This document shows positions 11,686 through 53,824 of a stretch of 64,000 nt of DNA, one piece after another. The notes below the pieces were generated by a model. The model ran no database searches. It was not told where the DNA came from and saw only the letters and a list, made by a program, of their open reading frames with translations. The DNA lies in NCBI GenBank assembly GCA_964016885.1, contig OZ024743.1:370822001-370886000 (forward strand), given 5' to 3'. The stretch is from Eledone cirrhosa (lineage: Eukaryota). The translations under genes were made by a program, and so were the position numbers. Within the stretch, counting starts at the first letter, position 1. Each line of letters starts with the position of its first letter.

Positions 11686-14600
11686 GCTTTCTTTATTAAC
11701 CACAAGGGTTTACACAAAGTAGACATTAAGGACAGTACAGGACAATACAGGATGGTACAAATGGACATTTCTGCGTGTAAAAAAACAAAAAACAGAGGAT
11801 GTAACAAAAAAAGAAACAATGAAAAATTCCCCAATAGGGGGGAGACTTCCGAGGGACATTCATGGAGAAAGCCCATTAAAAAAAAGCCACGGTGACCCTG
11901 ACCACCAGGGCAAGTGCCCTCTTCCAGTTTTCCACCTTCAATTTACAGGCACATACTCAGAGTAGGCCCATTCACATGGGCCATTCTTGCTTCTCACCCA
12001 TCTTTCAACAAAATGTTGGGAAGAGAGCACTTCCCTCTCTACCCTGATTTTCCTTTTTAAATGAAATTTGAAAAAGTTAATCAGGGTATCACCGAAGAGG
12101 TAAGTGCTCGTCTTCAGCCCTTTCAAACGTGTCCACAATACTATTTCTTTCGCCATGGCCACCAGACAGATAAGAATTGCCTGACCTTCCCGGTTAAAGG
12201 AAGAGGGCGGGGCAATCCTCACGATGGACTCAGCTGATAGCTGGATCCGTCCTACACGTGACAGCAGGTGTTCGACATAAACCCACAAGTCAGCAATGCT
12301 CGGTCACTGGACGAGTGCGTGCAGGATGGTTTTGTCGCCCTGCGCGCTTCTCGGACATGCCCGGCTGACGGTACCTCCATACCTGTAGAGTTTATCCCGA
12401 ACTGGCAAAGCTCCTCGGTAGCACTACCAGGCCAGGGATTTCTGGAAATTGTCCATAGGCCCCGGCCCGAAAGTTCTTCCGAAGAGATTGGCTAGTTCAT
12501 TTTCGTCGACGCCTAGAGTTTCCCCAAGTACGTCGCCGTTAAGGAGACGTGCTGGGGAAAGACGCATCTAGCAAATGGCGACCACACCTGATCACCGTCG
12601 AGGAAGAGGTGCAGATGTCATAGCCTGAGTGCGTGTCTGCACATCATCAGCCACGGCATTCCCAACCCTCCACGTAGCGGGTGTTGACAGCAGATGGACC
12701 GCCTGACTATCGGAGCGCGTCCCTTCCAGAAAAAGCGAAAGAGAAACTGCTCCAGCGCAGTCAGGCGAGGCTTAGGACAAGGCACGACGGTCAGGCAGTA
12801 GTAGATGACAGACGCGATGTATGGGTTAGCCACCTCCGCGCGACCTTTCAGGGATAGCTTCTTCTCCGCCCATTTCTGGCTGAGAGAAGCCACCCTGCTC
12901 GTCACCTCGTCCCAGTTTTTGTCCGTCTGGAGGTCCGGACCAAACCAGACCCCTAGCAATTTAACCGATCTGTCCGTCCAGCGCCCGACAGCATGGACCT
13001 GCCTCTCCAGGTGCCGAGCTGCAGGCCCACCGACTTTTCCTGGTTGATCATTGCTCTTGTCACCGCTTCGTATTCTCTTAGTGTAGTGCTGATCTCCTCG
13101 ATGTGCTTGGCGTTCGACAGCACTACGGTGACATCGTCAGCATATGCTGACACGGATCTTCCGCATCCTAGTTCGCGCGGGAGCCCCCCTCAACGTCTTC
13201 AGTTTGTGCAGTAATGGCTCGAGAGTCAATACGTACAAGAAGGACGAGAGGGGACATCCTTGGCGGAGCGAGCGCATGATGTTGAACGGTTCCGAAAGGT
13301 GACCGTTCACTCTCACCACAGAGCAGATGTCGCTGTGCATGGCAGCGATCCAGCTTCTGAAGATGGTCCCAAAGCCAGCCGCCCTCGGGACTGCCGCCAG
13401 ATAACGATGGACGACTCTATCGAAAGCTTTCGACTGATCTAAATTGATCAAGGACCCACCCGTCCCTAGCTACCCTCTCCACAATGTATCTCATGAGGTG
13501 GAGGTATCTGTCAGGAATGGCACATGACTGCGCCTCTCCCACCAGACCACCAACGACAAGCCCCAACCTCTTTGCTAGCACCTTGGCCAAAATCTTGAAC
13601 TCTGTTTTGAACAGAGTTATGGGTCTGAAATTATCTATGTTATCCCCCTTGTTCCGCTCTTCGGCTCACAGAGCTGGGAATTCTCCCGTTCTGTTGCCAG
13701 TTGCAGTAGACGTCCGCCAAGAGGCCTCCGAACAAGTCTGGCATCTATACGTAAAGTTCATAGGGCAGACCATCCAAACCAAGCGATTTACCCGTTGTGC
13801 AGCCAGTCATTGCCTCCCGTATTTCAGCTGCTGTTATCGGCTTTTTGCAACACTCTGCCTCAGTGGCCGAGAGCCGCGGCAGTCCGTCGAGGTAGACACT
13901 AAAGTCCATCCGTCGATCTGGCTCTCCGCTGCCCGAACAGCTGAGGGAAGTGTCGCTGAGAAGCTTCACGCATTTGCCTGGGATCGAGTAGCATGCACTC
14001 GTCGTGGTCCACCAAAGACCGGATTGTGGCTTTGTTGACACAATAAGCCTCCACCACTTGGGCCCATTGGACGGCTTTCATCCCCTCGTGTCTGAGAGCA
14101 CGCACCCTAGCTCTGACAACGCAGCCTTCATGCTTTGCATTGAAGAATTGGTCAGGGGCCAATTCCGCCGCAAGTACGTCGGTCGCGATGCCTTTGCTAA
14201 GCGCCTCGTCTAATTTTCTAACTAGTTCTCCCTCTGCTCTATTTTTCTCTATTGCTAAAGCCTTACTAAACCTAATGGACTCTATTCTAATTGCACTTTT
14301 CAGAGCAAACCACCATTTGTTGTTGACGATGGCTCCCGTCAACACTCGCTTAACTAGTTCGCTAATCCGTTTTCCACCTCTGAAGACGGGCCCAAAGCCA
14401 GCCGCCCTCAAGACTGCCGCTAGGTAACGATGGTCGACCCTATCGAAAGCTTTCGACTGATCTAAATTGATCAAGGACCCACCCGTGCCAGGTTCCCTAG
14501 CTACCCTCTCTACGATGTATCGCATGAGGTGGAGGTTGTCGTGGATGGATCTATCGGGAATGGCGCATGTCTGCGCCTCTCCCACCAGAACACCAACGAC

Positions 14601-17600
14601 TTTGCTAGCACCTTGGCCAAAATCTTGAACTCTGTGTTTAGCAGAGTTATGGGCCTAAAATTATCTATGTTATCCCCCTTGTTCGGATCCTTTCTCAGCA
14701 GTGCCACCGCTCCTCGGCTCACAGAGCTGGGAATTCTCCCGTTCTGTTGCCAGTTGCAGTAGACGTCCGCCAAGAGGCCTCTGAACAAGTCTGGCATCTA
14801 TACGTAAAGTTCATAGGGCAGACCATCCAAACCAAGCGATTTACCCCTTGTGCAGCCAGTCATTGCCTCCCTTACTTCAGCGGCCGTTATCAGCTTTTCG
14901 CAACACTCCGCCTCAGTGGCCAAGAGCCGCACCAGTCCATCGAGGTAGACACTAAAGTCCATCCCTCGATCCGGCCCACCGCTGCCCCCGAACAACTGAG
15001 CGAAGTGTCGCTGAAAAGCTTTACACATTTGCCCGGGATCGAGTAGCATGCGCCCGTCGTGGTCCACCAAAGACCGGATCGTGGCTTTGTTGCCACGACA
15101 TGCCTCCGTCACTCGGGCCCATTGAACGGCATTCGTCCCCTCGTGTCTGAGAGCACGCACCCTAGCTCTGACAACGCAGCCTTCGTGCTTTGCATTGAAG
15201 AATTGGTCAAGGGCCAATTCCGCCGCAAGTACGTCGGTCGCGATGCCTTTGCTAAGCGCCTCGTCTAATTTTCTAACTAGTTCTCCCTCTGCTCTATTTT
15301 TCTCTGTTGCTAAAGCCTTACTAAACCTAATGGACTCTATTCTAATTGCTCTTTTCAGAGCAAACCACCACTTGTTGTTGACGATGGCCCCCGTCAACGC
15401 CCGCTTAACTAGTTCGCTAATCCAGTCTCTGTAGGCCTTGCGCGCTGGTAAGGACGCGTTTAGCTTCCAGTAGCCGGGTCCTCGTCTATGAAGCCTATCT
15501 AAGTCAAGCACACAGATCACGAATTTGTGGTCCATGTAGCTGACTATCTTGAATTGTGGACAGTCTATGCTAGACCTATCTATTTCTCTACAAAATACTC
15601 TATCTAGATATGATCTGGATGACCCTATGCGATTTTTCCAAGTCCACATTGGCACATTCGGGAAATCCAATCGGTACCTGTCAGAAAGTTCAAAACGCCT
15701 GAGCAGGTTGGTGAGACTCTTGCACTCTCCTCCCCTATCTGCTAATCCCACACAGTCCCAGCGTGCATCTAAGATCCCATTCCAGTCGCCCACTAACACT
15801 AAAGAGCGGGACGTTCCAAGAAAGGTCTCCAGACGCCGGAAGAAATCAGGCCGCCCTGCTCCTGTCGGGGCATAGACGACCACTAGCCTGAAAGCTTGCC
15901 CATCTCCGCTGGTCACATATAGCACCACCAACTTACCTTCTGGGTTCAGGAAGATGGCTCGTATGGCGAGATCCAAACCGCTCCGAAAAAGCACAGCAAC
16001 TCCTCCCCCCGATCCCGGATGGCTGGGAGATGCGTACACATCGTAGCCGCCGAAGATCAGTGCGAAGCCCCGTGCTTCGGAGATTTTGGTCTCGCTGATG
16101 GCCACTACATCTATGTTTAGTGACCTGAGGTCGTTGAGCAGGTGGCCCTGCTTCCATGATGACCCCAAGCCACGCGCATTTATGCTGCCTATTCTGAGTG
16201 AGGTCATGTTGAAATGGAGTGGAAAAGATGGGAAAGAGCACTTACCTTACTTCTCGTAGAGGAAGGATGGTTTGTCCATCCTTTTCACTGCTTGTGGCCT
16301 CCTCCGGAAGGATGTCCTTATAAATCCTCCTGGAGAGTGTTTGTCGGAAGTCTCCGATGTCTTTGGGGAATTTTTGTTTTAGTGTCGTGTACGTTTTCTG
16401 TGTGATGCGAGTGATTTGTATGTGTGGAGGTGGTGTGAACTTTTGGGTTGTTGTGTAGACTTTTTCTGTGATGCTGGTGTTGTGTTGCATGTAGTGTAAT
16501 AATTGGTTGTTGTTCAAATCTAATGCTGTGTCGTGTGTATTGTTTTGGTTGTTTTGTTTTGTTTGCGTTTGTTGTGGGTTTGTTTCTGTTATGCTTTTTG
16601 GTGACCTTTGGGGTGTTGGTGATGGTGGTGTTGGGGTTAATGATGGTGTTGGTGTTTGTGGTGATGGGGGTTGGTGATGCTGGTGTGGATGGTGGCATAT
16701 CTGTCCTAACTTTTTTGTTTGATAATTTATTTGTTTCCCTCTGTATTTTGTTTTTGGAGGGGGAAGGAAGAGAATTTTTTCTTTTTTGGTTTCTTTCTTT
16801 CTTTTTTCCTGATACTGTTTCCCACTCCTCGTCTTCACAATCTGTCTCCAGTTGCGATAAGCCGGGGAGTGGAAAATCTTCCACAGGCGTTGGTTTTGGT
16901 TGTGGCGTGGTGGATGGTGTAGGCGCTGGTGCTAGTTCTGGCGTGTTGGGTTGTGGTGGTGTTGATTTTGCTACTGTTGCTGGGGTTGTTGCTGTTACAG
17001 TTGCTTCTGTTGTTGCTGCTACAGTTGTTGCTGCCATTTCTGCTGCTAGTGGTGTTGATGGTTGAGTCACTGGGGTGGGTAAGAGAGGTGGCCTCAACCT
17101 TTTAGCCTGAGGGCAGAAAACCCTTAGGTGGGTTCCTTCACCACAAACGACACACCTAGGTCTTCTGCCCTCGACGATTACGGTGAGGTGGCTGCCGTCA
17201 GTGACGTCTATTACCTCTGGGATCTCCTCAATGCTTTTATGGTCCGCTTGGATCAGGAGCTCCATCCCAGATCCGGACCAGTTCTCCTGCTTTTCTTTCG
17301 CTATTTCAATTATCTTAGTGTTGGCCTCTATGCCGGCGAGTAGGTAGCCATTAGCCAGGGAATTTCGATGGCCGGTGGAACGTGGGTCACCCTGATCTTC
17401 ACAAGTCTCTGGCCACAATAGCTTGGGACGAATGTGAAGTCGTCACTTCTTAATGGGGCCATGGAGTGTTCTCTGGCCTCCTGTGGTGTTTCAAAGAACA
17501 CGACCACGGTTCCATACTTCTGCCCACCTCTGATGTGGGTTTTCTTTGCCCACACATGTCCCAAAGCTTTTTGGATTTGGGACTCGGATGCCCGTTCCAC

Positions 17601-18384: not shown

Positions 18385-18421
18385 AATAATAATAATAATA
18401 AATAATAATAATAATAATAAT

Positions 18422-21400
18422 GATTTCTTTATTGGCCACAAGGGCTGACATCAAGAAAAACATTACAGACGGCACAGGACGGTACGATGTGGGTTTTGTG
18501 CGTGTAAAGATTTTTATTATTTATATAAGAAAAGAAAAAAAAGGACATAGAAACATATATATATATAAACAATAAAAATGAAAATTGAAACAATGAAAAG
18601 TTCCCCAACAGGGGGGAAATCTCCGAGGGTTACTCGTGGCGAAAACCACACAAAAGACCACGGCCACCCTGACCACCAGGGCAAGCGCCCTCTCTCAATT
18701 TTTCCATCTCTGAAAAACCACAGGCATATATTCAGAGTGTTCACTCGGACCATTCTCGCTACATTCACCCACCTTTCAACAAACTTGCTAGAAGGCAGCA
18801 CTTGCCTCTTCACCCTGATTTTCCTGTTCAAGTGAAACTTGAAAAAGTTAATTAGGGATTCGCCAAAGAGGAAAGTGTCTCTCTTTAACCCTTTTAACCT
18901 TGTCCACCAAACAATCTCTTTCGCCATGGCCACCAGGCAGATGAAAACCGTCTGCCCTTCCTCATCGAAGGAAGACGGCGAGACCATCTGCACAATGGAC
19001 TCAGTCGACAACCAGATCAGTCCTACACGCGACAGCAACTGTTTGACATAGCTCCACAAGTCAGCAATGCTCGGGCACTGAACGAGTGCGTGCACGACGG
19101 TTTCGTCGCTCTGCGCGCATCTCGACAGGCTCGGCTGACGGCACTTCCGTGCCTGTAGAGCTTATCTCGAACCGGCAGCGCTCCCCGGTAGCACTGCCAG
19201 GCCAGGGATTTTTGGAAGTTATCCATAGGCCCCGGGCTGAAAGTTCTCTGGAAGAGAACAAACAGCTGATCTTCTTCGACGCCCAGGGTCTCTCCGAGAA
19301 TGTCGTCGCTCTTCCCCTCCACTAGTCCTCTATAGAACGCCAAGGTGGTGTTCCACCGATACTGGTGCCCAGCTGGCAGAGGGCAGTGAGCGCCTGGAGA
19401 GATTCCAGTTTCCAAGCGCTATCCCTCGGTCTTTTTCTAACCCAGGACTGCAGCTCCGTCAAGGAGACGAGCTGTGGGAAAATGTGCCTGGCGAACGGCG
19501 ACCACACCCGTTCACCATCAAGGAAGCAGCAGAGATGTCACAGCCTCAGCGCATGTTTGCGCATCATCAGCCATGGTATGCCCAGTCCTCCACGCAACGG
19601 GTGTTGACAGCAGATGGATCGTCTGACCATGGGAACGTGTCCCTTCCACAAAAAGCAGAGGCGCTCCATTTTGGTGAGAGTTGGGGCGGAGCAAGGGACG
19701 ACGGTGAGGCGGTAGCAGATGACAGATGCGATGTACGCATTCGCCACCTCCGCCCGGCCTTTCAGGGACAGCTTCCTCTCGGTCCATTTCTGGGTGAGGG
19801 AGGCCACCCTGCTTGTCAGCTTGTTCCAGTTTTTCTCCATCTGGAGGTCTAGTCCGAACCAGACCCCGAGCAATTTAACCTTCCGTCCGTCCAACACCCC
19901 ACGACGCTGTCGGACGGCATGGACATGCCTCTCCAGGTGCCGAGCTGCAAACCCGACTTTTCCTGGTTTATCTTTGCTCCTGTCACCGCTTCGTATTCCT
20001 TGTGAGCGGTGCTGAGCATCTGGACGTGTCTGGTGCTCGACATCACCACGGTGACGTCGTCAGCGTAAGCCGACTCGGATTTCCCGCATCCTAGTTCCGT
20101 GGGACGCCCCTCATCACCCCAAGTTTGTGCAGTAACGGCTCGAGAGCCAATACGTACAAGAGGGACGAGAGGGGACAACCCTGGCGGAGTGAGCGCATGA
20201 TGCTGAATGGCTGCGACAGGTGACCGTTCACCCTCACAACTGAGCAGATGTCGCTGTACATCACAGTGATCCAACTCCTGAAAACGGGCCCGAAACCGGC
20301 TGCCTCGAGGACCTCTGCCAGGTACTGATGGTCGACCCTATCGAATGCTTTGGATTGATCCAAGTTGATCAGGGCCCCACCCGTGCCAGGTTCCTTAACC
20401 ACCCTCTCTATGATGTATCGCATGAGGTGGAGTTTGTTGTGTATGGATCAGTCTGGAATATCTGCGCCTCTCCCACCAGACCCTTGACGACAAGCGCCAA
20501 CCTCGTTGCTAACACCTTGGCCAAAATCTTGAACTCTGCGTTTAGCAGGGTTATGGGCCTGAAATTATCGATAACTCCCCCTTGTTCGGATCTTTTCTCA
20601 GCAGCCCCACTGCTCCCCGGCTCACAAAACTAGGAACGCTCCCGTTCTGCTGCCAGTTGCAGTAGACGTCTGCCAAGAGGTCACCGAACAAGTCTGGCAT
20701 AAATGCATAAAGCTCATAGGGCAGACCATCCAAACCTGGCGATTTACCCCTTGTGCAGTTAGACATCGCTTCCCATATTTTACCGGCTGTGTTTGGCTTT
20801 TCGCAACACTGTGCTGCGATCGTCGAGAGCCGAGGCAGTCCGTCGAGGTATGCACTGAAGTCCATGCCCCGATACGTGCTGCCACTGCCGCTCCCGAACA
20901 GTTCAGCAAAGTGCTGCTGAAAAGCTTCACACATCCACTCGGGTTCGAGCATCACGCACCCGTTTTGGTCAGACAAAGACCTAATTGTGGCTTTGTTGCC
21001 ACGTCGCTCCTCTGCCACCCGGGCCCATTGGACGGCTTTTGTCCCCTCGTGTCTTAGAGCACGCGCTCTAGCTCTGACAATGCAGCCTTCGTGTTTTGAA
21101 TTGAAGATTTGGTCGAGTGCCAATCTCGCCGCAAGCACGTCGGTTGCGATGTCTGTCCTAAACGCCTCTTCTAGCTTTCTGACTAGCTCTCCCTCTACTC
21201 TATTTTCCTCTATCACTACTCCTTTGCTAAACCTAATCGACTCTACTTTAATTGCCCTTTTCAGGGCGAACCACCACCTGTTGTTGATGACCGCTCCCGT
21301 CAATGCCCGCTTAACTAATACGCTAATCCGGTCTCTGTAGGCTTTGCGCGCCGGGAAAGACGCGTTCAGCTTCCAGTAACCAGGTCCTTGTCTATGCAGT

Positions 21401-23131
21401 CTGTCTATCTCGATCTCACAGATCACAAATATGTGGTCTGTGTAGTCGACTATTTTAAATTGTGGACAACTTATACTAGCCTTATCTAGTTCTCTGCAGA
21501 ATACCCTATCGAGATACGATCTGGATGACCCGATGCGGTTTGTCCATGTCCACATTGGCACATTCGGGTGATCCAGTCGATACCTGTCAGACAGTTCAAA
21601 ACGTCTGAGCAGGTTGGTGAGGCTCTTGCACCGTCCTCCCCTATCCACTAGCCCCACATGATCCCAGCATGCATCCAAGATACCGTTCCAGTCGCCCACT
21701 AACACTAAAGAGCGGGACGTGCCAAGAAAGGTCTCTAGACGTCTGAAGAAATCTGGCCGTCCTGCCCCTATTGGGGCGTAGACGGCTACTATCCTGAAAG
21801 CATTGCCTTCGCTGCCGGTCACGTCCAGCACCACCGACTTACTTTCTGGGTCTAGGAAGATGGCCCGTATCGCGAGATCCAAGCCTCTCCGAAAAAGGAC
21901 GGCAACCCCTCTCCCCGATCCTGGATGGCTGGGAGATGCGTATACATCGTAGCCGCCGAAGATCGGTGCGAAGGCTTGTGCTTCTTCGTTTGTTGCCTGC
22001 CCTGCTCTTGGTAGCAGCGGACCAGGTATTGGAAGGAGAGTGGTCTTCTTCGCCGTCTTCTGCGGGCAAAAGGCCCTGAGGTGACCCTTCGACCCACAGA
22101 GATAACATGTTGGCCGTCTTCCTTCTACACTTATAGAGAGTTGGAGTCCTTCCTCGATGTCTATAATATCGGGGATAGCGTTGATACATTCCTGGTCAGT
22201 TTGTATAAGCATTTGCATGCCTATACCTGACCAGTTCTCACTCCCTATTTTTCTACTTGCAGCATGGTCGTCCTGTTCTCGATTCCAGCAAGGACAGATG
22301 CGGCCAGCCAAGGTATGGGCACATCGGGAGGGACCTGGGTCACTTTGACCCTCACAACTTTAGTGTTTCCAAAGAGTGAGACTTTGCTTCCTGGGGGGTG
22401 GCGAAAAGTACGTCTACTGTGGTGTACTTTCTGCCTCGGGTGATGTGGGTTTTGCGTGCCCAGACGCACCCCAAGGCCTTTTGGATTTGAGCCTCCGTGG
22501 CTCTCTCCACCCGATGTGAGATTTTGCTTACGGTGCAGTAAGTCACCGTCCGTAGCTACTGGTCCTTGAAAAAATCGGGTGGAGGTTTCAGGGAGACTCT
22601 ATTTGCGCTTCTTGTCACCATGGCCCTTGCGACTGCCATCTCCTCCTCTGTGACTAACACTGTCTCGATATTTCGGGCGACACCTGCAAAAGAAGTGGTC
22701 CCTTTTTCAGCAGCACCACTATTGCTGCCGCTACTGGTCTTACTGGTAGTGCTGAGATCGCTATTACAGGTATCGGTGTCATTGTTGTTGTTTTCGTTGG
22801 TACAGTTGTTGGTGTTGTTGTTGTTGTTTTCATTGATACTGTTGCTGTTGTTACTGTTACTGTGGCTGTTGTTATTATTGTTGTTTTTGTTGATACTGTT
22901 CCTACTATTATTGTTGTGGCTGTTGTTATTGTCATTGTTATTGTCGTTCTCGACTTTACCGCTGTTATTTTTGTTGTTGCTGTTGTTATTGATGGTGTTG
23001 TTGTTGGTGGTATTGTTGGTATTGTTTGTGTTAGAAATATTTGTTAATTTTAAATCTGTAACAATCTTCTTTTCATTTGTAATATTTTCATTTATATTTA
23101 CCTCCGCTGGAATGCTGTCTTGTTGACATGC
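18422..23131 (-). mobile_element. Second Tx1-like LINE (different ORF1 variant), internally deleted
   Basis: Asn-rich ORF1 N-terminus; the knuckle CYLCGSKGHLRAFC is fused in frame to ORF2 EN (ORF 20551-22311); RT motifs; 3' end cccttgtggccaataaagaaatc(ATT)n; (TAA)n at both ends. Confidence 0.92.
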
Positions 23132-23149
23132 TGATAATAATAATAATAA

Positions 23150-25832
23150 ATTGTTGAAAAGCATGAGAGAAGTAAGAAGCATCATTCTATCTGGAAGGAG
23201 AGCAAAAAATATGCTACTGATCTCATGCTTGATACCCAGGCTGGACAGACTAAAGAAACTGATGCAACTGATGCTGCTAGGCACACAAAATCACTGGCAA
23301 AAGCAAAAGGGCAAGGATAATTAGCATCAAATTGGGAGCAGAAACCTCTGCATAGCAAATATGTGGCCTGTAGCAAACAAGCTGATGTTGACCAAAGGCA
23401 CACCCATCAGTGGCTACGTATTTTAGGGCTAAAGGCGGAGAGTGAAGGCTTCATCTTAGCTGCCCAAGATCAAAGCTTATTGACTCGTAATTACCAGGCC
23501 AAATGTGATGAGAAACGGAATAAATCCAAAGTACCGATTCTGCAATGCTGAGGTTGAAACAGTGGATCACTTAGTCTCTGGATGTAAAGTTTTAGCACCA
23601 GTAGAATACAAATATAGACATGACAGAGTTGGCCAATATCTACACTGGGTAATATGTCGGCATTACAAAATCAAAGCTGAAGACAAGTGGTACAACCATC
23701 ACCCTGAGGCTGTAACTAAGGAGAAGTAATAATTCTCTGGGACTTTCCTGTACATACTGACAGGACCATAAAAGCAAATAGACCTGACATCATTATAAAA
23801 GATCAACATAACAAGGTCTGTTTGTTGATAGATATGAGCATCCCATGTGATCACAATATCGCGGCAAAAGGATTTGACAAGCTACAAAAATATAAAGATC
23901 TCATCATCATCATGATCATCACCGTTTTACGTCCGTTCTTCCACGCTAGCATGGGTTAGACGGGTTGTCCTGTTGTGGGCAGTGTCTGGTCGGCTGACCA
24001 TGCCTTGCTCATACAGGAACTGATCTGGCTTGATTTCTACAGCTGGATGCCCTTCCTAACACCAACCTCATTTACAGTGAGTGCTGGGTGCTTTTTCGTG
24101 GCGCCTACACGTCCACTTTACAGTGTGGGCTGGGTGCTTTTTTGCCGTGGCACCTCCACGACCACCTTGCGGTGGGGGGGGGGAGGCATATTGTTTATAT
24201 GCTTCAGCATGTACCCATGGGAGGTCGGGTACCCTGTATTACTGCGTGACGCCAGAAGTCACGGTCGTGTGTCATTGTCTTTGAGAGGTGTAGTTGGGTA
24301 AGGTCGGCTTTTATCACCTCATCCCAAGTCATCTTGGGTCTCCCCACTCCGCGGTTTCCATCAACTTCTAGTGCTCTGCACCTTTTTATGCAGCTGTCAT
24401 CCTTCATACGCATCACATGTCCATACCAGCGTAACCGCCTCTCCTGCACGCAGCATTTGATTCCTCTTATGCTCAGTCTCTCTCTCAATTCCTTTATGCT
24501 TTGTCGTTCACGTATATTACTGTTACACATCCATCGGAGCATGCAGGCTTCGTTTCTCTCTAATCTACGTAAGTCTTCCACCTTCAGCGCCCAGGTCTCA
24601 CTACCATGCAACATCGCTGTTCGGATACACGCATCATACAGTCTGCCTTTCATTCTGAGGGAGAAGCCTTTTGCAGCTAGCAGTGGTAGTAGTTCCCTAA
24701 ACTTCTTCCATCCCGTTCTTACCCTAGTTATTGTACTTTCTGAGCACCCACCTCCGTTGCTAATTCGGTCACCTAGGTAGCAGAAGCTGTCTACTGTTTC
24801 TACAGGGCCCTCCCAGAGATTGGTGGTACTTGTTTCCTGTGGCTGTTTGCTTGCTGTTTCAGTACAGCTGCTGCATGTGAATCCTACATTCTTAATTAAG
24901 CTTCCTGAGATCCCGCTACATCTCTTGTGTACCCATTGTTTGCATTTGGGGCAGAGAATGGAGTTCCTACCTACACCTTTCCTACATACTGAGCAAGGCC
25001 ATTTCCCTGAGGGGATCTGGGTTCTGTTTTCTCGTCTACTTACAAGGACCTTAGTCTTTGTCATGTTGACTTTGAGGCCCTTTCTCTCTAGTCCCTGCTT
25101 CCAGGTTTGGAATTTATTCTCTAGTTCTACCATAGATTCAGCTATGAGTGCGAGGTCATCAGCATACAGGAGTTCCCATGGGCATCCGGTCTTAAACTCC
25201 TCCGTTATTGCCTGCAGGACTATGATGAACAGGAGAGGGCTAAGAACAGAGCCCTGGTGGACCCCAACCTGTACGCTAAATTCCTCGCTATACTCATTGC
25301 TAATCCTAACTTTGCTGACTGTTCCCCTATACATGGCTTGTACCGCTTTCACAAGCCATTCATCTACTCCTAGTTTTCTAAGAGCCCACCAGATTACTGC
25401 ACGTGGAACTCTGTCAAAGGCTTTCTCAAGGTCGACAAATGCCAAGTCGACAATCTGCTTATTGAAATTGAGAAAATGTGGCACCTCAAGGCCGTTACAA
25501 TACCAGTGACTGTGGGAGGACTGGGTATGATCAAGAAAGGAACAGAACAATATTTGTGAATGATTCCTGGTTTGCCCTCTCTGCACGAGGTGCAAAAAAT
25601 TGTTTTGACTGGTACTGCACACGTATTGAGAAGAGCACTATCTCTGTAAGATTGATATCCCTCCTTGTATTTACATATGCATATGCACATGTGTATATAT
25701 GTATACTGTTTTTTTTTATTATAATCAATGTGCTGTATTAACTGGCTTACCAATGCACACTGTGAATTTATTTGCCCTAGGTGTCACTCGGCATATATCT
25801 CAGAAACAATAATGAAACAATAATGAAAGAAA
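23150..25832 (+). mobile_element. 5'-truncated R4/Dong-like RLE LINE, split by an RTE insertion
   Basis: GLKAESEGFILAAQDQ, CCHC-like ETVDHLVSGC, RHD, RPD..LID nuclease motifs. KYKDL (to about 23903) resumes as LIEIEKMW after about 25455. Ends in gaaa(ATA)n. Confidence 0.88.
23901..25452 (-). mobile_element. Young 5'-truncated RTE LINE inserted in the Dong-like element
   Basis: Open RT C-terminal half (AFVDLEKAFDRV, HQGSVLSP, YADD, PHD-like finger, RRLRWYGHV); (GAT)n tail at about 23901-23920. Confidence 0.93.
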
Positions 25833-25852: not shown

Positions 25853-25953
25853 AATTGTTTCTACTTTTGGCACAAGGCCAGGAATTACCCAGTGTATTAC
25901 TGGTACTTTATTTTATCGACCCCGTAAGGATGAAAGGCAAAGGTAACCTTGGC
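25853..25953 (-). mobile_element. 5'-truncated SINE family A between (TAA)n runs
   Basis: Same core and 3' end as 52772-52952; (TAA)n on both sides. Confidence 0.85.
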
Positions 25954-25968
25954 AATAATAATAATAAT

Positions 25969-27228
25969 GATTTCTTTATTGGCCATAAAGGCTGGCATCA
26001 AGAAAAACATTACAGACGGTACAGGACGGTACGATGTGGGTTTTGTTCGTGTAAAGATTTTTATTATTTATATAAGAAAAGAAAAAAAAAGGACATAGAG
26101 ACATATATATAAACAATAAAAATGAAAATTGAAACAATCAAAAATTCCCCCATAGGGGGGAAACCTCCGAGGGTTACTCGTGGTGAAAACCTCACAAAAG
26201 ACCACGGCCACCCTGACCACCAGGGCAAGCGCCCTCTCTCAATTTTTCCATTTCTCAAACTACAGGCATATATTCAGAGCGGTCCCGTTCACTCGGACCA
26301 TTCTCGCTACATTCACCCACCTTTCAACAAACTTGCTAGAAGGCAGCACTTGCCTCTCCACCCTGATTTTCCTGTTCAAGTGAAACTTGAAAAAGTTAAT
26401 TGGGGATTCGCCGAAGAGGAAAGTATCTGTCTTTAACCCTTTCAACCTTGTCAACCACACAATCTCTTTCGCCAAGGCCACCAGGCAGATGAAAACCGCC
26501 TGCCCTTCCTCCTCAAAGGAAGACGGCGAGACCATCTGCACAATGGACTCAGTCGATAACCGGATCAGTCCTACACGCAACAGCAACTGTTCAACATAGC
26601 TCCACAAGTCAGCAATGCTCGGACACTGAACGAGTGCATGCACGACGGTTTCGTCACTCTGCGCGCATCTCAGACAGGCTCGGCTGACGGCACTTCCGTG
26701 CCTGTAGAGTTTATCTCGAACTGGCAACGCTCCCCGGTAGCACTGCCAGGCCAGGGATTTTTTAAAGTTCTCTGGAAGAGAGCAAACAGCTGATCTTCTT
26801 CGACGCCCAGGATCTCTCCGAGAACGTCATCGCACTTCCCCTCCACTAGTCCTCTATAGAACGGGATGTTCCACCGATACTGGTGCCCAGCAGGCAGAGG
26901 GCAGTGAGCGCCTGGAGACATTCCAGTTTACAAGCGCTATCACTCGGTCTTTTCCTGACCTAGGACTGCAGCTCCGTCAAGGAGACGAGCTGTGGGAAAA
27001 CGTGCCTGGCGAACGGCGACCACACCTGTTCACCGTCAAGGAAGCAGCAGAGATGTCGCAGCCTCAGCGCATGTTTGCGCATCATCAGCCATGGCATGCC
27101 CAGTCCTCCACGCAAAGAGTGTTGACAGCAGATGGATTGTCTGACCATGGGAGCGCGTCCCTTCCACAAAAAGCAGAAGAGGAGGCGCTCCATTTTGGTG
27201 AGAGTTGGGCCGGGGCAAGAGACGACGG
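25969..27228 (-). mobile_element. 5'-truncated Tx1-like LINE
   Basis: C-terminal ORF2 (CLRCAQSDETVVHALVQC) and a 3' UTR nearly identical to the one at 18422; (TAA)n on both sides. Confidence 0.9.
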
Positions 27229-27243
27229 TAATAATAATAATAC

Positions 27244-28275
27244 TCCATTACAAACGATGCACAAAGATACAGTAATGGACTACAAATTTCAGAAATCCAT
27301 TTACTGCTGAAATGGAAAACACAGAAAAAGCAAAGCAGGTAAAAGTAACTGGAAAGAAAGAACTGCTACAGAAACTGGCTAAGAAATAGCAAGAAAAGCC
27401 TCTGTATGGAAAATACCCAGAAAGGGCTAACAATCCTGATGTTGACAAAACTTTAACCCATCAGTGGTTGGCATCCTCTGGACTGAAATCGGAGACTCAA
27501 GGACTAATTATATCAGCACAAGATCAGTGTCTGCCAACAAAAAATTACCAAGCCATCATAATAAAAAATGTATGCAGCCCATTATGCCGTGTATGTAAAA
27601 AACAACCAGAGACCATTGATCATATAATTTCAATGTGCTGTCCAAACGAATACCTAAACAGGCACGACAGAGCTGCACAATACATACATTGGATAATGTG
27701 TAAGCATTTTGACCTGCCCCATCAAAAGGATTGGTGGGAGCATCAACCACCTCCCGTACTTGAAAAAGATCACATCTCAATCTTGTGGAACTTTAGCATC
27801 CAAACAGACCGAAAAATAGATGCAAATAGACCTGATATAATACTGAAGGACTTTAAAAAGAGGGTATGCCTGTTAATTGATATGTCCGTTCCAATAGATA
27901 AGAATGTATCTATAAAAACATTTAAAAAATTGAGGAAGTATAAGGACCTGGAGATAGAAATTGGAAGGAAAAATGTGGAAATTAAGAACTAAAACAATAC
28001 CAGTAGGCGCTCTAGGAATGATACCTAAGGGGTCTAATGATTACTTATCGTAAATCCCAGGAAACCCGCATATAGGAGAAATACAAAAGATAGTACTAAT
28101 GGGAACAGCCCATATACTAAGGAAGATTCTGTCAATATAAGTACATCACAAGTCTAAACACCTAAAGATACATGTGTGTTCTTTCGTGAACATGGCGGAC
28201 CTTGTTGTATCTTGAGGTCACTGATGGTGACTTGGTGATAACTCGTATGAACATAACGCAAGATAAATGCAACTG
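27244..28275 (+). mobile_element. 5'-truncated R4/Dong-like RLE LINE
   Basis: GLKSETQGLIISAQDQ, CRVC..ETIDHIISMC, RHD, RPDII..LID..VP; preceded and followed by (TAA)n. Confidence 0.9.
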
Positions 28276-28299
28276 TAATAATAATAATAATAATGATAT

Positions 28300-29000
28300 T
28301 TGCAATTTGTTGAAAGATGGGTGAGAGAGGCGAGCATGGCCCGAGTGAATGGGCCTGCTCTGAGTATGGGCCTGTAGATTGGAGGGGGAAAACTGGCAGA
28401 GGGCATTTGCCCTGGTGGTCAGGGTCATCAAGGCTTTTTGTAGGCTTTCTCCACGAGTGACCCTCGGAAGCCCCCCATTGGGGAATTTTCCTTTGCTTCT
28501 TTTTTTGTCATTTCCTTTATTTTTTCTTTACACGCAGAAATGCCCATTTGTACCATACTGTGTGTCCTTAATGTTATATTTTATGTCAACCCTTGTGGTT
28601 TATAAAGAAAGCACTATTATTACTATTATTATTATTATTATTATTATTATCATTGTTCCGAGTGAACGGGACCACTCTGAATATACGCTTGTAGTTTGAG
28701 GAATGGGAAAAAATTGAGAGAGGACGCTTGCCCTGGTGGTCAGGGTGGCCGTGGTCTTTTGTGTGGTTTTCGCCACGAGTAACCCTCGGAGGTTTTCCCC
28801 TATTGGGCAAGTTATCATTGTTTGAATTTTCATTTTTATTGTATATATATATGTTTCTATGTCTTTTTTCTTTTTCGTTTCTTATACAAATAATAAAAAT
28901 CTTTACACGCACAAAACCCACATCGTACCCTCCTGTACTGTCCTGTGTACTGTTTTTCTTGATGTCAGACCTTGTGGCTAATAAAGAAATCATTATTATT
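28300..29000 (+). mobile_element. Two tandem Tx1-like 3'-end fragments, each ending in (TAT)n
   Basis: About 28300-28612 and 28654-28991; both end ccttgtgg..(t/a)ataaagaaa..(ATT)n. Confidence 0.85.
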
Positions 29001-30703: not shown

Positions 30704-30803
30704 ATTGTTTCTACTTTTGGCACAAGGCCAGCAATTAACAGTGCATTACTGGTACTTTATTTTATCGACCCCCGTAAGGATGAAAGGCAAAGTTAACCTC
30801 GGC
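30704..30803 (-). mobile_element. 5'-truncated SINE family A
   Basis: Same 3' end, with a (TAA)n tail at 30690-30704. Confidence 0.8.
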
Positions 30804-31827
30804 GTGATGGTGGTGAAAGTGGTGGTGATGATGGTGTTGATAATGATAAAGATACACTTTAGCCTGGCAAAGTAGGTTATATAGAGATGGTGTCTCAATA
30901 AAAATACCTGTGCGTGGGGAAAGCCCCAATCATGATGCAAAACAATAATGAAATATTTAATGGCGTGAATGAAGCTAGAAGCAATCATGGTGAAGGTTCC
31001 TCGCCCGGTATGTTCCAAGCCCACAGCAACAGGAAAATAATCTGGTTTTGGACAGTCGTTACCAAGGAACAGATCATATACAGTATGTGCGTGCAACTAG
31101 ACACAAATTTAAGAAGGTAGAGTACGCTACACTGACTAAATGCAATGAAAGAGCAAAAATGGAAGAAGTTATCGATTAGGATGATACACTGTGGACTTTG
31201 TCTGGAAAAGAGCATTTTTGAAATGTCTGAAAGTAAACTAATGAATTAAGTGAGGGTGATTAGGAGGAAGGGCTGGTTAACTGAGGTAGAAAATCTTGGA
31301 TTAGTGAATGCTTAAAGGAACCTGTAGATGAACAATAAAGCGCGGTTAGAGCTGAAGCTGTTTCTATGGTTGAAGGCAGAGAGAAAAATGGGAAGCAGGA
31401 GAAGGGAGATTGTGATGGGAATGTTAGGGCTGCCGAAGAGAAATAGCTAAGAACGAGAAGTATTGCAAGTGGTTGAGTCACTTAGATGATGAGTTGCTTG
31501 AATTATGTAGCTGGATTTAATGAATGCCCCAGAAGAATATGAGAAGAGTAGATAGGAGGTTGATAATTGAAACTACAAAAAAAGATAAATGCAGTCATAC
31601 ATATACATCCAGACATAAGACAAACTAAGAACCTCATCCAAGCTTGTAGAGGAACAAATGGGACTGATGAGCACTAAGCAGAGTAAGGCAAAAGTACGTT
31701 GGTGGAAAAGACACATTGAAAATGTCATGATGTGGTTGAGGCAGGATCTAAGTAAAATTGAACAATGGTTTAAAGGAAAGTGAAAAATGCAAAAAGGCTG
31801 ATGAAAAAGCAGTAGACAAGATATATA

Positions 31828-49660: not shown

Positions 49661-49760
49661 ATATGAAAAGAATCAGGATTCCAATGGCTGAACTCCAACT
49701 GTTTCGACAGCCGTCGAAACGGCCGGAGCTCAGCCATCGGGATCCTGATTCTTTTCATAT
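49661..49760. repeat. 100-bp palindrome (48-bp arms, 4-nt loop)
   Basis: atatgaaaagaatcagga...gtttcgac-agcc-gtcgaaac...tcctgattcttttcatat. Confidence 0.92.
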
Positions 49761-50103
49761 TACCCACTCTACTACTTTTCATATTACCCACTCTACTACT
49801 TTTCATATTACCCACTCTACTACTTTTCATATTACCCACTCTACTACTTTTCATATTACCCACTCTACTACTTTTCATATTACCCACTCTACTACTTTTC
49901 ATATTACCCACTCTACTACTTTTCATATTACCCACTCTACTACTTTTCATATTACCCACTCTACTACTTTTCATATTACCCACTCTACTACTTTTCATAT
50001 TACCCACTCTACTACTTTTCATATTACCCACTCTACTACTTTTCATATTACCCACTCTACTACTTTTCATATTACCCACTCTACTACTTTTCATATTACA
50101 CAC
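49751..50103. repeat. 24-bp minisatellite, 14 perfect units plus one partial
   Basis: Unit cttttcatattacccactctacta. Confidence 0.97.
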
Positions 50104-50119
50104 TTTATTATAGTCCACC

Positions 50120-50796
50120 TGGTATCTTACCACCCAAACGACCACTTTACAGTGTGGGCTGAGCACTTTCTGTCATGGCACCAAATTGACCACTTTACAA
50201 TGTGAGCTGTTGTGACACCTACACGACTAATTTACAGTGTGGACTTTACAGTGTGCATTTGTTGTGACCACTTTAGTGTGGACTGAGCACTTTTTGTCAT
50301 GGTACCAAAACAACTAGATTACAGAGTAGACTGGGTGACTTATCTGGTAAAGTGTGGGCTATTAGGGCATATGTAGAGTGTTAGGACGTGGTTGGAGTGT
50401 TAAGACGTTGTTGGTAGGTGAAATATAAGGATATGGGGGGAGGGAAGGTGGTACATACTAGATGTATGCTTCAACCTGTGCCCATTGGAAGGTGGGTCTT
50501 CTGTATTACTGCATAACACTAGAGATCTTAATCCTGTGTCATTACTTTTGAGAGGTGCAATTGTACAAGGTCAGCTTTTATCACCACATGCCGAATCTTC
50601 CTAGGTCACCCTACTCTGTAGCTTCCATCAACTTTGAGCACCCTGCACATGTGTGTGCAGCTGCCATCCTTTGTACGAATCACATGTCCATACCAATTCA
50701 ATCTTCTCTCCTGTATACTGCATCTGGTCCTTCTTATGCCCAGTTTCTCTCTTAGTTCATTTACGCTTTGCCGTTTATGTATATCACTATTACATG
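50120..50796 (-). mobile_element. RTE 3' fragment
   Basis: gaccactttacagtgtgg 3' UTR units and a degenerate ORF C-terminus. Confidence 0.75.
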
Positions 50797-52660: not shown

Positions 52661-52771
52661 CCACGTACATCCCATGCCATTTCTGGAGGTGACTCAGTAA
52701 ATTGAGCACAATTATGTAGTTGATATTCAAAGAGAAGCTGACTAGGATCCATTAATGACTAATGAGGAAGC

Positions 52772-52952
52772 GTGGTGAATTGGCAGTATCGGTAGAAGGT
52801 CAGACGCCTTTCTAGCATACTTATGTCCCTTTATGATCTGAGTTCAAATCCCGCCGAGGTTAACTTTGCCTTTCATCCTTACGGGGTCGATAAAATAAAG
52901 TACCAGTAATGTACTGGGTATTGATGGCCTTGTGTGCCAAAAAGTAGAAACA
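52772..52952 (+). mobile_element. Near full-length SINE family A with a 21-bp TSD
   Basis: tRNA-like head (tggcagtatcggtaga; gagttcaaatcc), core ctttcatccttacggggtcgataaaataaagtacc, TSD attaatgactaatgaggaagc (52751-52771, 52953-52973). Confidence 0.9.
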
Positions 52953-53824
52953 ATTAATGACTAATGAGGAAGCATGTAACTGAATCACTATTTAGGAACA
53001 TACATATGCATACATGACACACACATACACACACATGCATATGGATATAAACAAACATTATACGTACACACACATATATATGGATGTAAACATACATATA
53101 CATCTTAATATAAACATACATCAGATACACACACATATGGATATAATAATACATAAGATATACACACAAACATCATCATTGCCATCAACATCATTAAAAT
53201 ATCTTCTTCCTCTTTTTCAGAACATGTCATAAAATCTCATGAAAGCAACCAGTACAGACATGGTAGATAATGCACCTGTTAATACCATATCAACATGGAA
53301 AAAGGAAAATAAAACTTCTGGTAATGTGATAATCATGATAGTGGTGGTGATAGTGATGATGATAGCTAATGGTGCTCAAGGCAATGGTGATGAAGATAAT
53401 AGTGGTGGTGGTAGTGATGATACTGAGGGGAGTAATGGTAATGATAATGGTCGTGATGATGGTAATGACAATGATGGTGGTGATTGTTATGTTGACAGTG
53501 GTGCTTGTGGTGATAAAAATGATAATCATGATATTGGTAATGTTGGTAATTATAGAGGTGGTAATGATGGTTAATGATGATGATAATGGTGGTTGCGATG
53601 ATGAAACTGGAGTCAATTCTGTGATGTCCAACTGCAACTTCCTGTTGCCAAACCTTCATTTGCATTCTGTTAACAGACACTTTGCTGCACTGGCCAACAC
53701 TGTGTTTACAACTAATAGCACTTGTTACTGCTGTTTCAAGACAATCTCTTTAACATTTGTAAACATTCTCTTTCCAGTGAGGATTTCAACAGAATAAATT
53801 AGATTTCAGCACTACAAATAGATA

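What the first reader, a model, noticed from the sequence alone, without database searches (positions are those of the whole stretch)
52751..52973. SINE whose 3' end mimics the Tx1-like LINE 3' end: a candidate SINE/Tx1 partnership
Seen: the SINE 3' end ggccttgtg-ccaaaagtagaaacaattatt aligns with the LINE 3' end gcccttgtggccaataa-agaaatcattatt. SINE copies at 10828, 25853 and 30704 lie in (TAA)n. The two copies in unique DNA have 18-bp and 21-bp TSDs that both begin with ATTA (4223 and 52751). The SINE core (ctttcatcctt.cggggtcgataaa..agtacc) resembles, from memory, the Meta/MESC-type conserved domain. Known: stringent LINEs mobilise SINEs that share their 3' end, mostly L2/CR1/RTE partners. 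Inference: this SINE is mobilised by the Tx1 machinery, an uncommon partner, and its TSDs record that endonuclease's preference.
Basis: partly seen in the sequence, partly recalled or inferred. Interest (0 to 1): 0.72.

Follow-up and report, generated by a model that had tools for sequence, protein, structure and literature searches.

The report
Octopod SINE riding ATT-tailed L1/Tx1-like LINE
A very abundant short mobile element in an octopus-like genome ends in the same small hairpin and ATT-repeat tail as a young L1/Tx1-type LINE beside it and lands at ATTATT sites, so that LINE family likely copies it; this is a new example of a known, though uncommon, kind of partnership.

Summary
Window 52772-52952 is a SINE copy flanked by an exact 21-bp duplication that starts ATTA. 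Across 108 copies, 57 have a clear duplication of 10 bp or more, and 54 of those 57 start ATTA (40 start ATTATT).

The LINE is real, young and very abundant. It is about 6 kb, with ORF1 plus a 1161-aa ORF2 (APE endonuclease, RT, zf-RVT). Its best solved relative is human L1 ORF2p. Its tail is (ATT)n, and all 18 full-length copies examined sit inside (ATT)n.

Plain sequence similarity between the SINE and LINE 3' ends is weak. It is significant against one LINE subfamily and not against the youngest one. The better evidence is a shared module:
- a 4-bp hairpin with a CUNGU loop and compensatory stem changes;
- a 12-nt spacer ending AGAAAY;
- an (AUU)n tail, with matching target sites.

A second LINE specific for the same repeat (R2/Dong-like) has the opposite tail polarity and lacks the module, so I reject it as partner.

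Tx1-clade membership could not be tested; only L1-group membership is shown. The "Meta/MESC core" recall is unsupported. Because ATTATT is also the tail repeat, the duplications cannot separate endonuclease preference from tail-target pairing.

Verdict: a new member of a known kind.

The parts
52751..52771 (.). 5' copy of the 21-bp target-site duplication, ATTAATGACTAATGAGGAAGC
   Evidence: identical to 52953-52973.
52772..52952 (+). Full-length SINE copy (181 nt). This copy is 93-95% identical to the best genomic copies.
52781..52851 (+). Head with an A-box-like TGGCAGTATCGG (52781-52792) and a B-box-like GAGTTCAAATCC (52840-52851). tRNA origin is presumed.
   Evidence: for coordinates. The box consensus is recalled. 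ARAGORN and Rfam find no tRNA here.
52870..52904 (+). Conserved body motif CTTTCATCCTTACGGGGTCGATAAAATAAAGTACC
   Evidence: The superfamily (CORE, Meta or MESC) was not tested.
52925..52939 (+). 3' hairpin TGGC-CTTGTGT-GCCA. This copy has a 2-nt longer loop than the family's usual CTTGT.
52940..52952 (+). Spacer AAAAGTAGAAACA, ending in the AGAAAC box that abuts the ATT tail or target
52953..52973 (.). 3' copy of the duplication. Its first bases, ATTA, double as the SINE's tail.
4223..4320 (+). 5'-truncated SINE copy (about 4240-4302) between 17-18-bp duplications ATTATTTCTATGCCTGT(C) at 4223-4239/40 and 4303-4319/20
10809..11000 (-). SINE copy (10830-11000) followed by (ATT)7
10654..10799 (-). 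Related SINE subfamily (SINE-2 type) with a longer body insert and its own tail
25856..25992 (-). 5'-truncated SINE (25856-25953) inserted in the (ATT)n tail of a LINE 3' end (25963-25992)
30706..30808 (-). 5'-truncated SINE copy followed by (ATT)5
18416..22549 (-). LINE copy of subfamily B, with broken frames. 3' end ...CAGCCCTTGTGGCCAATAAAGAAATCATT(ATT)n at 18416-18445.
11680..16289 (-). LINE copy (90-95% identical to the young subfamily) with a 482-aa open EN segment at 14798-16246. 3' end at 11680-11718.
26133..27192 (-). 5'-truncated LINE body belonging to the 3' end at 25963-25992
28302..28997 (+). Two short LINE 3' fragments. Their ends are at about 28618 and at 28968-28997.

Best explanation
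The element at 52772-52952 is a SINE copy with an exact 21-bp target duplication, and it is likely mobilised in trans by the (ATT)n-tailed L1-group (probably Tx1-clade) LINE family that also fills this window. Shown: the LINE has a 1161-aa ORF2 with an APE endonuclease, an RT and a zf-RVT domain. LINE and SINE end in the same module, which is a 4-bp hairpin with a CUNGU loop, a 12-nt spacer ending AGAAAY, then ATT repeats. SINE duplications start ATTA or ATTATT and run 10-25 bp. Full-length LINE copies lie inside (ATT)n. Inferred: the LINE endonuclease nicks the bottom strand just after 5'-AATAAT-3'. That 3' end pairs with the AUUAUU at the RNA's tail. ORF2p picks its template through the hairpin, as stringent LINEs do, and reverse transcription starts at the box/tail border. 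This would explain why unique-site copies read GAAACA|ATTATT-target with no extra repeats. A second nick 10-25 bp downstream would give the duplication.
For: (1) Target. Of 108 non-redundant SINE copies with an intact 3' end, 57 have a duplication of 10 bp or more starting right after GAAACA, against 12 of 108 in mismatched-pair controls (Fisher p 4e-11). 54 of the 57 begin ATTA, 2 GTTA and 1 TTAT; 40 of 57 begin ATTATT. The background frequency of ATTA is 0.7% per position. The ATTATT is present in the 5' copy too, so it was in the target. (2) The LINE uses the same site. 18 of 18 full-length copies with a detectable 5' end are preceded by at least 7 ATT units; 8 of them sit in the tail of another LINE copy and 2 in a SINE tail. 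21 of 28 further 3' ends carry at least 4 ATT units. One 5'-truncated copy in unique DNA (L128) has the duplication ATTATTATTTTAAA. (3) Module. The pattern C[CT]TTGTG..GAAA..ATT has 66 hits in 664 kb against 1.6 in shuffles. All but 5 fall in SINE or LINE 3' ends. (4) Hairpin. In 15 tails (11 LINE lineages or copies, 4 SINE variants), 90% of cells pair, against 72% in shuffles (0 of 500 reach it) and 18-60% when slid. 3 of 4 pairs change on both sides (GC/AU, CG/GC, UA/AU). RNAalifold predicts the same helix unprompted, and it appears in the MFE fold of a whole SINE. (5) Timing. 20 LINE copies are 99.45% identical pairwise and most have an intact ORF2. The young SINE subfamily is 98.5% identical pairwise. 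(6) The LINE is L1-group: Exo_endo_phos + RVT_1 + zf-RVT, and human L1 ORF2p at E 3e-52, collinear over residues 5-855.
Against: Primary similarity of the two 3' ends is weak. It is not significant against the youngest LINE subfamily (940 of 5000 shuffles), and the SINE tail's best local match in the 6-kb LINE is elsewhere. The helix is only 4 bp. I saw it by eye before testing it, and its double changes trace to perhaps 2-3 independent events. SINE and LINE differ in context: only 8 of 63 SINE copies carry 4 or more ATT units, against 21 of 28 LINE ends (p 1e-8). The LINE therefore looks far more repeat-bound than its supposed passenger. 43 of 108 SINE copies gave no duplication. Other ATT-tailed non-autonomous elements lack the CTTGT hairpin, so the tail alone may suffice. 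No expression or mobilisation data exist. The Tx1 clade label is untested.
Confidence: 0.7

Rival explanations
1. Same LINE family as partner, but relaxed recognition. The enzyme would need only an (AUU)n 3' end that can pair with a nicked ATTATT site, as L1 needs only poly(A). The hairpin would be inherited baggage.
For: Weak primary similarity. At least two other non-autonomous elements end in (ATT)n without the CTTGT hairpin. Few independent compensatory events support the helix.
Against: The hairpin keeps pairing while its stem letters change, across LINE lineages that have even switched tail repeat, and in the SINE. It keeps a fixed 12-nt distance to the tail.
Confidence: 0.15
2. The SINE is moved by the other (TAA)n-specific LINE of this genome, an R2-group (Dong/R4-like) element.
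For: Dong elements are reported to target TAA repeats, including one in a snail (PMC3812793, passage). Such a LINE is present here, also in the window at 27390-28294. Its RT is closest to R2 proteins, E 9e-17.
Against: Its sense strand ends ...AAGATAAATGCAACTG(T)(AAT)n. That is the opposite polarity to the SINE's (ATT)n, and it has no hairpin or AGAAAY box. That SINE duplications of 10-25 bp suit an APE-type enzyme is established knowledge, recalled and not tested here.
Confidence: 0.03
3. An unsampled LINE lineage with an ATTA-nicking endonuclease that is not bound to long repeats is the real driver. The resemblance to the sampled LINE would reflect only common descent of tails.
For: The SINE is mostly at short ATTATT sites and the sampled LINE mostly in long (ATT)n. 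The LINE group is diverse, with lineages of 67-95% identity and different 3' UTRs and tails.
Against: In 664 kb, every LINE-type 3' end carrying the module belonged to this group. A truncated LINE copy with an ATTATT-initiated unique duplication exists (L128).
Confidence: 0.1

Closest known systems
Stringent SINE/LINE pairs with a 3' stem-loop (eel UnaSINE1/UnaL2; zebrafish ZfL2-1 and ZfL2-2). Sources: PMC4176376, abstract read; PMC3747384, section 1.4 and passages.
   Same: SINE and LINE share a short 3' stem-loop followed by a simple-repeat tail. Stem letters vary while pairing is kept.
   Different: Those LINEs are L2 clade and not target-specific. Here the LINE is L1-group, the stem is only 4 bp, and the tail repeat equals the target.
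SINEU / Tx1-Mar of crocodilians (PMC4494074, abstract and passages)
   Same: A SINE is assigned to a target-specific Tx1-type LINE because both land in the same target. Some SINE families show a weaker preference than the LINE.
   Different: SINEU has snRNA-derived heads and poly(A) tails, and the target is a Mariner transposon. Here the head is tRNA-like, the tail is (ATT)n, the target is ATTATT or (ATT)n, and a shared hairpin is added.
Microsatellite-specific Tx1 elements: Kibi (TC)n, Koshi (TTC)n, crocodilian Tx1 on (TTCC)n/(TTTC)n (PMC4494074 and PMC3812793, passages)
   Same: An APE-type L1/Tx1-group LINE bound to one microsatellite. Sister lineages use other repeats; here these are (ATT)n and (CTAT)n.
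   Different: The repeat units and the host (a cephalopod) differ. No SINE partner is mentioned for Kibi or Koshi in the passages I read.
L1-clade LINEs with stringent tails: a maize/sorghum L1 lineage with its SINEs, and Chlamydomonas L1-1_CR/SINEX-3_CR (PMC3747384, passages)
   Same: An L1-group LINE with a conserved 3' stem-loop, compensatory stem changes and a SINE sharing the tail. This is rare: the review reports 3 SINEs with L1 tails among more than 800 L1 LINEs.
   Different: Those are from plants and an alga, with poly(A) ends and no target specificity.
Dong (R4 clade), specific for (TAA)n (PMC3812793, passage)
   Same: Uses the same microsatellite. A Dong-like LINE coexists in this genome.
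   Different: Different enzyme group (RT closest to R2), opposite tail polarity, no shared module.

Membership tests
SINE (tRNA-derived, Pol III) | Short, non-coding, highly repeated, flanked by target duplications | tested here: met
   181 nt. 1662 first-look candidates in the genome, with all 40 scored at 93-100% identity. 63 copies with an intact 3' end in 664 kb. Duplications in 57 of 108 copies.
SINE (tRNA-derived, Pol III) | tRNA-like head with A and B boxes | tested here: inconclusive
   B-box-like GAGTTCAAATCC and A-box-like TGGCAGTATCGG are present (the box consensus is recalled). ARAGORN finds 0 tRNAs in the window and in 10 loci. Rfam gives 0 matches at E<=1.
Stringent SINE/LINE pair | Sequence similarity of the 3' ends | tested here: inconclusive
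   Versus LINE-B, 10 of 5000 shuffles reach the score. Versus LINE-A, 940 of 5000 do.
Stringent SINE/LINE pair | Shared 3' stem-loop kept by compensatory change | tested here: met
   90% of cells paired against 72% in shuffles (0 of 500). 3 of 4 pairs change on both sides. The helix is short and the independent events are few.
Stringent SINE/LINE pair | Same terminal repeat and same target signature | tested here: met
   (ATT)n tails on both. ATTATT-initiated duplications in the SINE (54 of 57 start ATTA) and in one truncated LINE (L128). LINE copies lie inside (ATT)n.
Stringent SINE/LINE pair | Trans-mobilisation that depends on the tail | not testable with these tools
   Needs a retrotransposition assay.
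L1 group of LINEs (L1 + Tx1) | ORF2 with an N-terminal APE endonuclease, an RT and a C-terminal Cys-rich (zf-RVT) motif, and closest to L1 ORF2p | tested here: met
   Pfam Exo_endo_phos 3e-14, RVT_1 7e-29, zf-RVT 7e-8. Human L1 ORF2p E 3e-52, against R2 proteins at 1e-20.
Tx1 clade | RT-domain phylogeny that groups it with Tx1 references | not testable with these tools
   Two database searches returned no named Tx1 or L1 references. The Atlas names are generic. External reference sequences could not be brought in.
Tx1 clade | Target-specific insertion | tested here: met
   18 of 18 full-length copies lie in (ATT)n. A sister-lineage copy lies between (CTAT)n runs. This feature is typical of the clade but not exclusive to it.
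MESC / Meta SINE superfamilies | Homology of the central domain to the MESC or Meta consensus | not testable with these tools
   No reference sequence is held. The MESC paper states that no homologues were retrieved outside snails and mussels (PMC4758252).
CORE-SINE superfamily | Homology of the central domain to the CORE consensus | not tested
   Resemblance of ...TTTCATCC...GGGG..ATAAAATAAAGTACC to the MIR/CORE core is my recollection only. Octopus OR2 is listed as a CORE-SINE (PMC4758252).
Passenger of a Dong/R4-type LINE | Same tail polarity and 3' sequence as the LINE | tested here: not met
   The Dong-like LINE ends in sense (AAT)n with an unrelated 3' end.

The most novel reading that the evidence does not exclude
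In this animal L1/Tx1-group lineage, template choice (a 3' hairpin) and target choice (pairing of the microsatellite tail with the nicked site) are separable modules. Swapping the tail repeat, (AUU)n versus (CUAU)n, retargets a lineage. A SINE that copied hairpin plus tail escaped the LINE's need for long repeats. It became a main driver of the octopod SINE expansion, on the order of 10^5 copies.
Probability: 0.3. Interest if true: 0.7.

Novelty: new member of a known kind. Interest (0 to 1): 0.5.

Why it matters
Octopus genomes are about 12% SINE, and most families are unclassified (PMC13282606, supplement table). My four literature searches found no paper that names the LINE which moves them. 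This pair would name a carrier for what extrapolates to a few hundred thousand copies.

It would also add an animal case to the very few L1-group LINEs with stringent, hairpin-based template recognition. The system looks tractable: sister lineages with (ATT)n and (CTAT)n tails allow a test of whether tail-target pairing or the endonuclease sets microsatellite specificity.

It is not a new kind of mechanism. Other follow-ups of this scan reached the same reading elsewhere in this genome.

Tried and rejected
1. Clade assignment by named relatives failed. The search for homologous proteins with ORF2 and with a 19-sequence profile gave only unnamed or generically named proteins. The ESM Atlas gave generic cluster names. 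The supplement of PMC13282606 holds coverage tables only.

2. tRNA origin of the head: ARAGORN and Rfam found nothing.

3. Positional test: I expected the SINE tail's best match in the 6-kb LINE to be its 3' end. It was not. I therefore dropped raw similarity as the main argument.

4. The Dong/R4-like LINE was examined as partner and rejected on tail polarity. Pfam and PDB gave nothing for its C-terminal domain, so its restriction-like endonuclease is only recalled from the motif.

5. I looked for a SINE with a (CTAT)n tail matching the sister LINE lineage. None was found among 20 (CTAT)n runs in 664 kb.

6. A possible outer stem (TAATTG/CAATTA) around the SINE hairpin appeared in one fold. 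It was not pursued, because I saw no clear counterpart in the LINE.

7. Earlier-findings look-ups by place and by sequence returned nothing.

8. Read mapping for expression was not attempted, because the tool turns repeats away.

Full report
**Observation**

Window 52772-52952 (+) is a 181-nt element between two identical 21-mers, ATTAATGACTAATGAGGAAGC (52751-52771 and 52953-52973).

- 10830-11000(-), 25856-25953(-) and 30706-30808(-). These are followed by 7, 8 and 5 ATT units.
- 4238-4302(+), a 5'-truncated copy between 17-18-bp duplications ATTATTTCTATGCCTGT(C).
- 10654-10799(-), a related SINE with a longer body and another tail.

The quoted LINE 3' end is at 18416-18445(-), 25963-25992(-) and 28968-28997(+). 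The copy at 25856 sits inside the ATT tail of the LINE end at 25963.

**The SINE genome-wide**

The window is part of a 3.0-Gb assembly (G000). The SINE query gave 1662 first-look candidates, and all 40 scored matches were 93-100% identical.

I built an unbiased sample of 664 kb: the window plus four blocks at arbitrary coordinates. It holds 63 copies with an intact 3' end. Extrapolated, that is a few hundred thousand copies.

I pooled these with the copies around the 29 best hits. That gave 108 non-redundant copies.
- 57 have a duplication of 10 bp or more beginning immediately after the last SINE bases GAAACA. Mismatched-pair controls gave 12 of 108 (Fisher p 4e-11).
- 8 are ambiguous low-complexity cases.
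- 43 gave no duplication. Some of these are nested or tandem copies, and some have only 4-6 bp.

Of the 57 duplications, 54 start ATTA, 2 GTTA and 1 TTAT; 40 start ATTATT. ATTA occurs at 0.7% of positions. Non-microsatellite duplications average 15.8 bp (33 in the unbiased sample) and 17.4 bp (20 around the best hits), with a range of 10-25 bp. Position -1 is G in 1 of the 52 counted.

The ATTATT is present in the 5' copy as well, so it belonged to the target. In unique DNA the junction reads GAAACA|ATTATT-target with no extra repeat units. In the unbiased sample, 8 of 63 copies carry 4 or more perfect ATT units.

**The LINE**

A 482-aa open endonuclease segment from the window (14798-16246, -) gave 49,362 first-look candidates. 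All 88 scored matches were 93-100% identical, and most lie in an open frame of 1161 aa.

I fetched twenty copies with flanks. They show an element of about 6 kb:
- 5' end GAATGCCATGGTTGACGG.
- ORF1 of about 700 aa with one CCHC knuckle and no Pfam match.
- ORF2 of 1161 aa.
- A 3' UTR of about 250 nt ending ...AAACCCTTGTGGTTAATAAAGAAATCATT(ATT)n.

ORF2 carries Exo_endo_phos, RVT_1 and zf-RVT. Its best solved relative is human L1 ORF2p, E 3e-52, collinear over residues 5-855; R2 proteins follow at 1e-20. That places it in the L1 group.

Whether it is Tx1 clade could not be tested. Two large searches gave no named references, and I could not bring in outside sequences. Indirect support for Tx1:
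- The target specificity shown below.
- In Octopus vulgaris, L1-Tx1 covers 56 Mb against 11 Mb for L1 (PMC13282606, supplement table).

The twenty copies are 99.45% identical pairwise, and the young SINE subfamily is 98.5% identical. Both were therefore active recently.

**LINE targets**

18 of the 20 copies had a detectable 5' end, and all 18 are directly preceded by at least 7 ATT units. In 8 of them the repeat is the tail of another LINE copy, and in 2 it is a SINE tail.

Of 28 further 3' ends, 21 carry at least 4 ATT units. This compares with 8 of 63 for the SINE (p 1e-8).

One 5'-truncated LINE copy in unique DNA (L128) has the duplication ATTATTATTTTAAA, the same signature as the SINE.

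The LINE and the SINE thus use the same site, but the LINE is much more confined to long repeats. I cannot explain this difference. Possibilities are longer AUU tails on LINE RNA, stronger selection against 6-kb insertions elsewhere, or a driver subfamily that I did not sample.

**The shared 3' end**

Raw similarity is weak.
- Against the window's LINE subfamily, the SINE tail scores 21, reached by 10 of 5000 shuffles.
- Against the youngest subfamily it scores 14, reached by 940 of 5000.
- The best match of the SINE tail within the whole LINE is not at the 3' end.

What is shared is an arrangement:
- A 4-bp stem around a 5-nt loop: SINE TGGC-CTTGT-GCCA, LINE-B GCC-CTTGT-GGC, LINE-A AACC-CTTGT-GGTT.
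- A 12-nt spacer ending AGAAAY.
- The repeat tail.

A pattern for this arrangement has 66 hits in 664 kb against 1.6 in shuffles. All hits lie in SINE or LINE 3' ends, except 5 that are very short SINE stumps or chance.

On an alignment of 15 tails, 90% of cells pair, against 72% in shuffles (0 of 500 reach it) and 18-60% when the partner is slid. Three of the four pairs change on both sides. RNAalifold finds the same helix on its own.

Three cautions apply. The helix is short, I saw it before I tested it, and the double changes trace to few events.

Sister LINE lineages (67-75% identical in ORF2) keep the hairpin but end in (CTAT)n, and one such copy lies between (CTAT)n runs. Tail repeat and target therefore change together.

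**Rivals**

The same repeat is also used by a second LINE.
- Its RT is closest to R2 proteins (E 9e-17).
- Its C-terminal part has a Cys motif and an RPD...D motif, which I recall as restriction-like.
- Its sense strand ends ...AAGATAAATGCAACTG(T)(AAT)n. That is the opposite polarity to the SINE, and it lacks the module.

It fits the Dong/R4 type, which is reported to target TAA repeats (PMC3812793). I reject it as the SINE's partner.

Two rivals remain:
- The tail alone may be recognised. Two other ATT-tailed non-autonomous elements lack the CTTGT hairpin.
- The true driver may be an unsampled relative of this LINE.

**Mechanism**

Shown: the anatomy, the duplications, the targets and the ages.

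Inferred:
- The endonuclease nicks the bottom strand after 5'-AATAAT.
- The freed 3' end pairs with AUUAUU at the RNA tail.
- The hairpin selects the template. This is by analogy with ZfL2 and UnaL2, where ORF2p binds the tail stem-loop (PMC4176376, abstract).
- The second nick falls 10-25 bp downstream.

The two GTTATT duplications show that the first base of the junction comes from the target. They hint that the nick position is set by the enzyme. The data cannot otherwise separate enzyme preference from pairing.

**Comparison with what is known**

- Tail sharing between SINEs and LINEs is textbook.
- In the L1 group it is rare. The review reports 3 SINEs with L1 tails among more than 800 L1 LINEs (PMC3747384, section 1.4).
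- Tx1-driven SINEs have been inferred from a shared target (SINEU/Tx1-Mar, PMC4494074).
- Microsatellite-bound Tx1 families are known (Kibi, Koshi and crocodilian families; same paper).
- My searches found no paper that pairs an octopus SINE with such a LINE.
MESC was not found outside snails and mussels, and octopus OR2 is listed as a CORE-SINE (PMC4758252). My own impression of a CORE-like body is recall only.

Other follow-ups of this scan reached the same reading at other places in this genome. They are not independent evidence, though I re-derived their main points here.

**Verdict**

This is a real, well-supported SINE/LINE pairing and a new member of a known kind. The Tx1 label and the role of the hairpin are still to be proven.

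Noticed in passing
window 27390-28294 (+); also L072:8252-9721 (-): A second LINE uses the same microsatellite in the opposite orientation. Its RT is closest to R2 proteins, its C-terminal part has Cys and RPD...D motifs, and its sense 3' end is ...AAGATAAATGCAACTG(T)(AAT)n. Six copies of that 3' end lie in 664 kb. Two unrelated LINE groups thus share one repeat as a landing pad.
   Followed up: partly
L079:4762-4800, L080:618-795 and 6473-6511, L090:1477-1515 and 7100-7138: Sister lineages of the L1-group LINE (67-75% identical in ORF2) end in (CTAT)n instead of (ATT)n. They keep the 3' hairpin, with loops CTAGT, CTGGT, CTCGT and CTGAT.
   Followed up: partly
L007 about 1460-1500; L020 about 1470-1500; L005 about 1480-1500: At some SINE 5' junctions, an inverted copy of the SINE's first 15-20 bases lies between the duplication and the SINE start. 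This looks like a snap-back or template switch at the end of reverse transcription.
   Followed up: no
reverse complement of L044, about 880-1147 (oriented copy); copies in blocks C1 and C2: A non-autonomous element of about 270 nt (CTCCTTGAGTCTCAGTC...GGGATCACTTTGACTTC) is flanked by (ATT)n on both sides but lacks the CTTGT hairpin. A second element has 61-bp internal tandem repeats and ends ...CACAATAATTTC(ATT)n.
   Followed up: partly
block C2, minus strand, SINE 3' ends at about 112290-113247 (L094 region): Four SINE copies are spaced exactly 319 bp apart with the same flank. This is a local tandem duplication of a SINE plus its flank, not four insertions.
   Followed up: no
window 24204-25637 (-): Another LINE type has an RT followed by a PHD finger (Pfam RVT_1 1.5e-21, PHD 1.9e-6). 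It probably belongs to the repeat families D4-D12 that recur 4-7 times in the window.
   Followed up: no
window 49679-50182: A tandem array with a 24-bp period, about 20 units, nearly perfect in the middle.
   Followed up: no
L043-L062 and window LINE 3' ends: The LINE spacer holds AATAAA 6 nt before the ATT tail. It looks like a polyadenylation signal, yet copies end in (ATT)n and not poly(A). The SINE lacks it.
   Followed up: no
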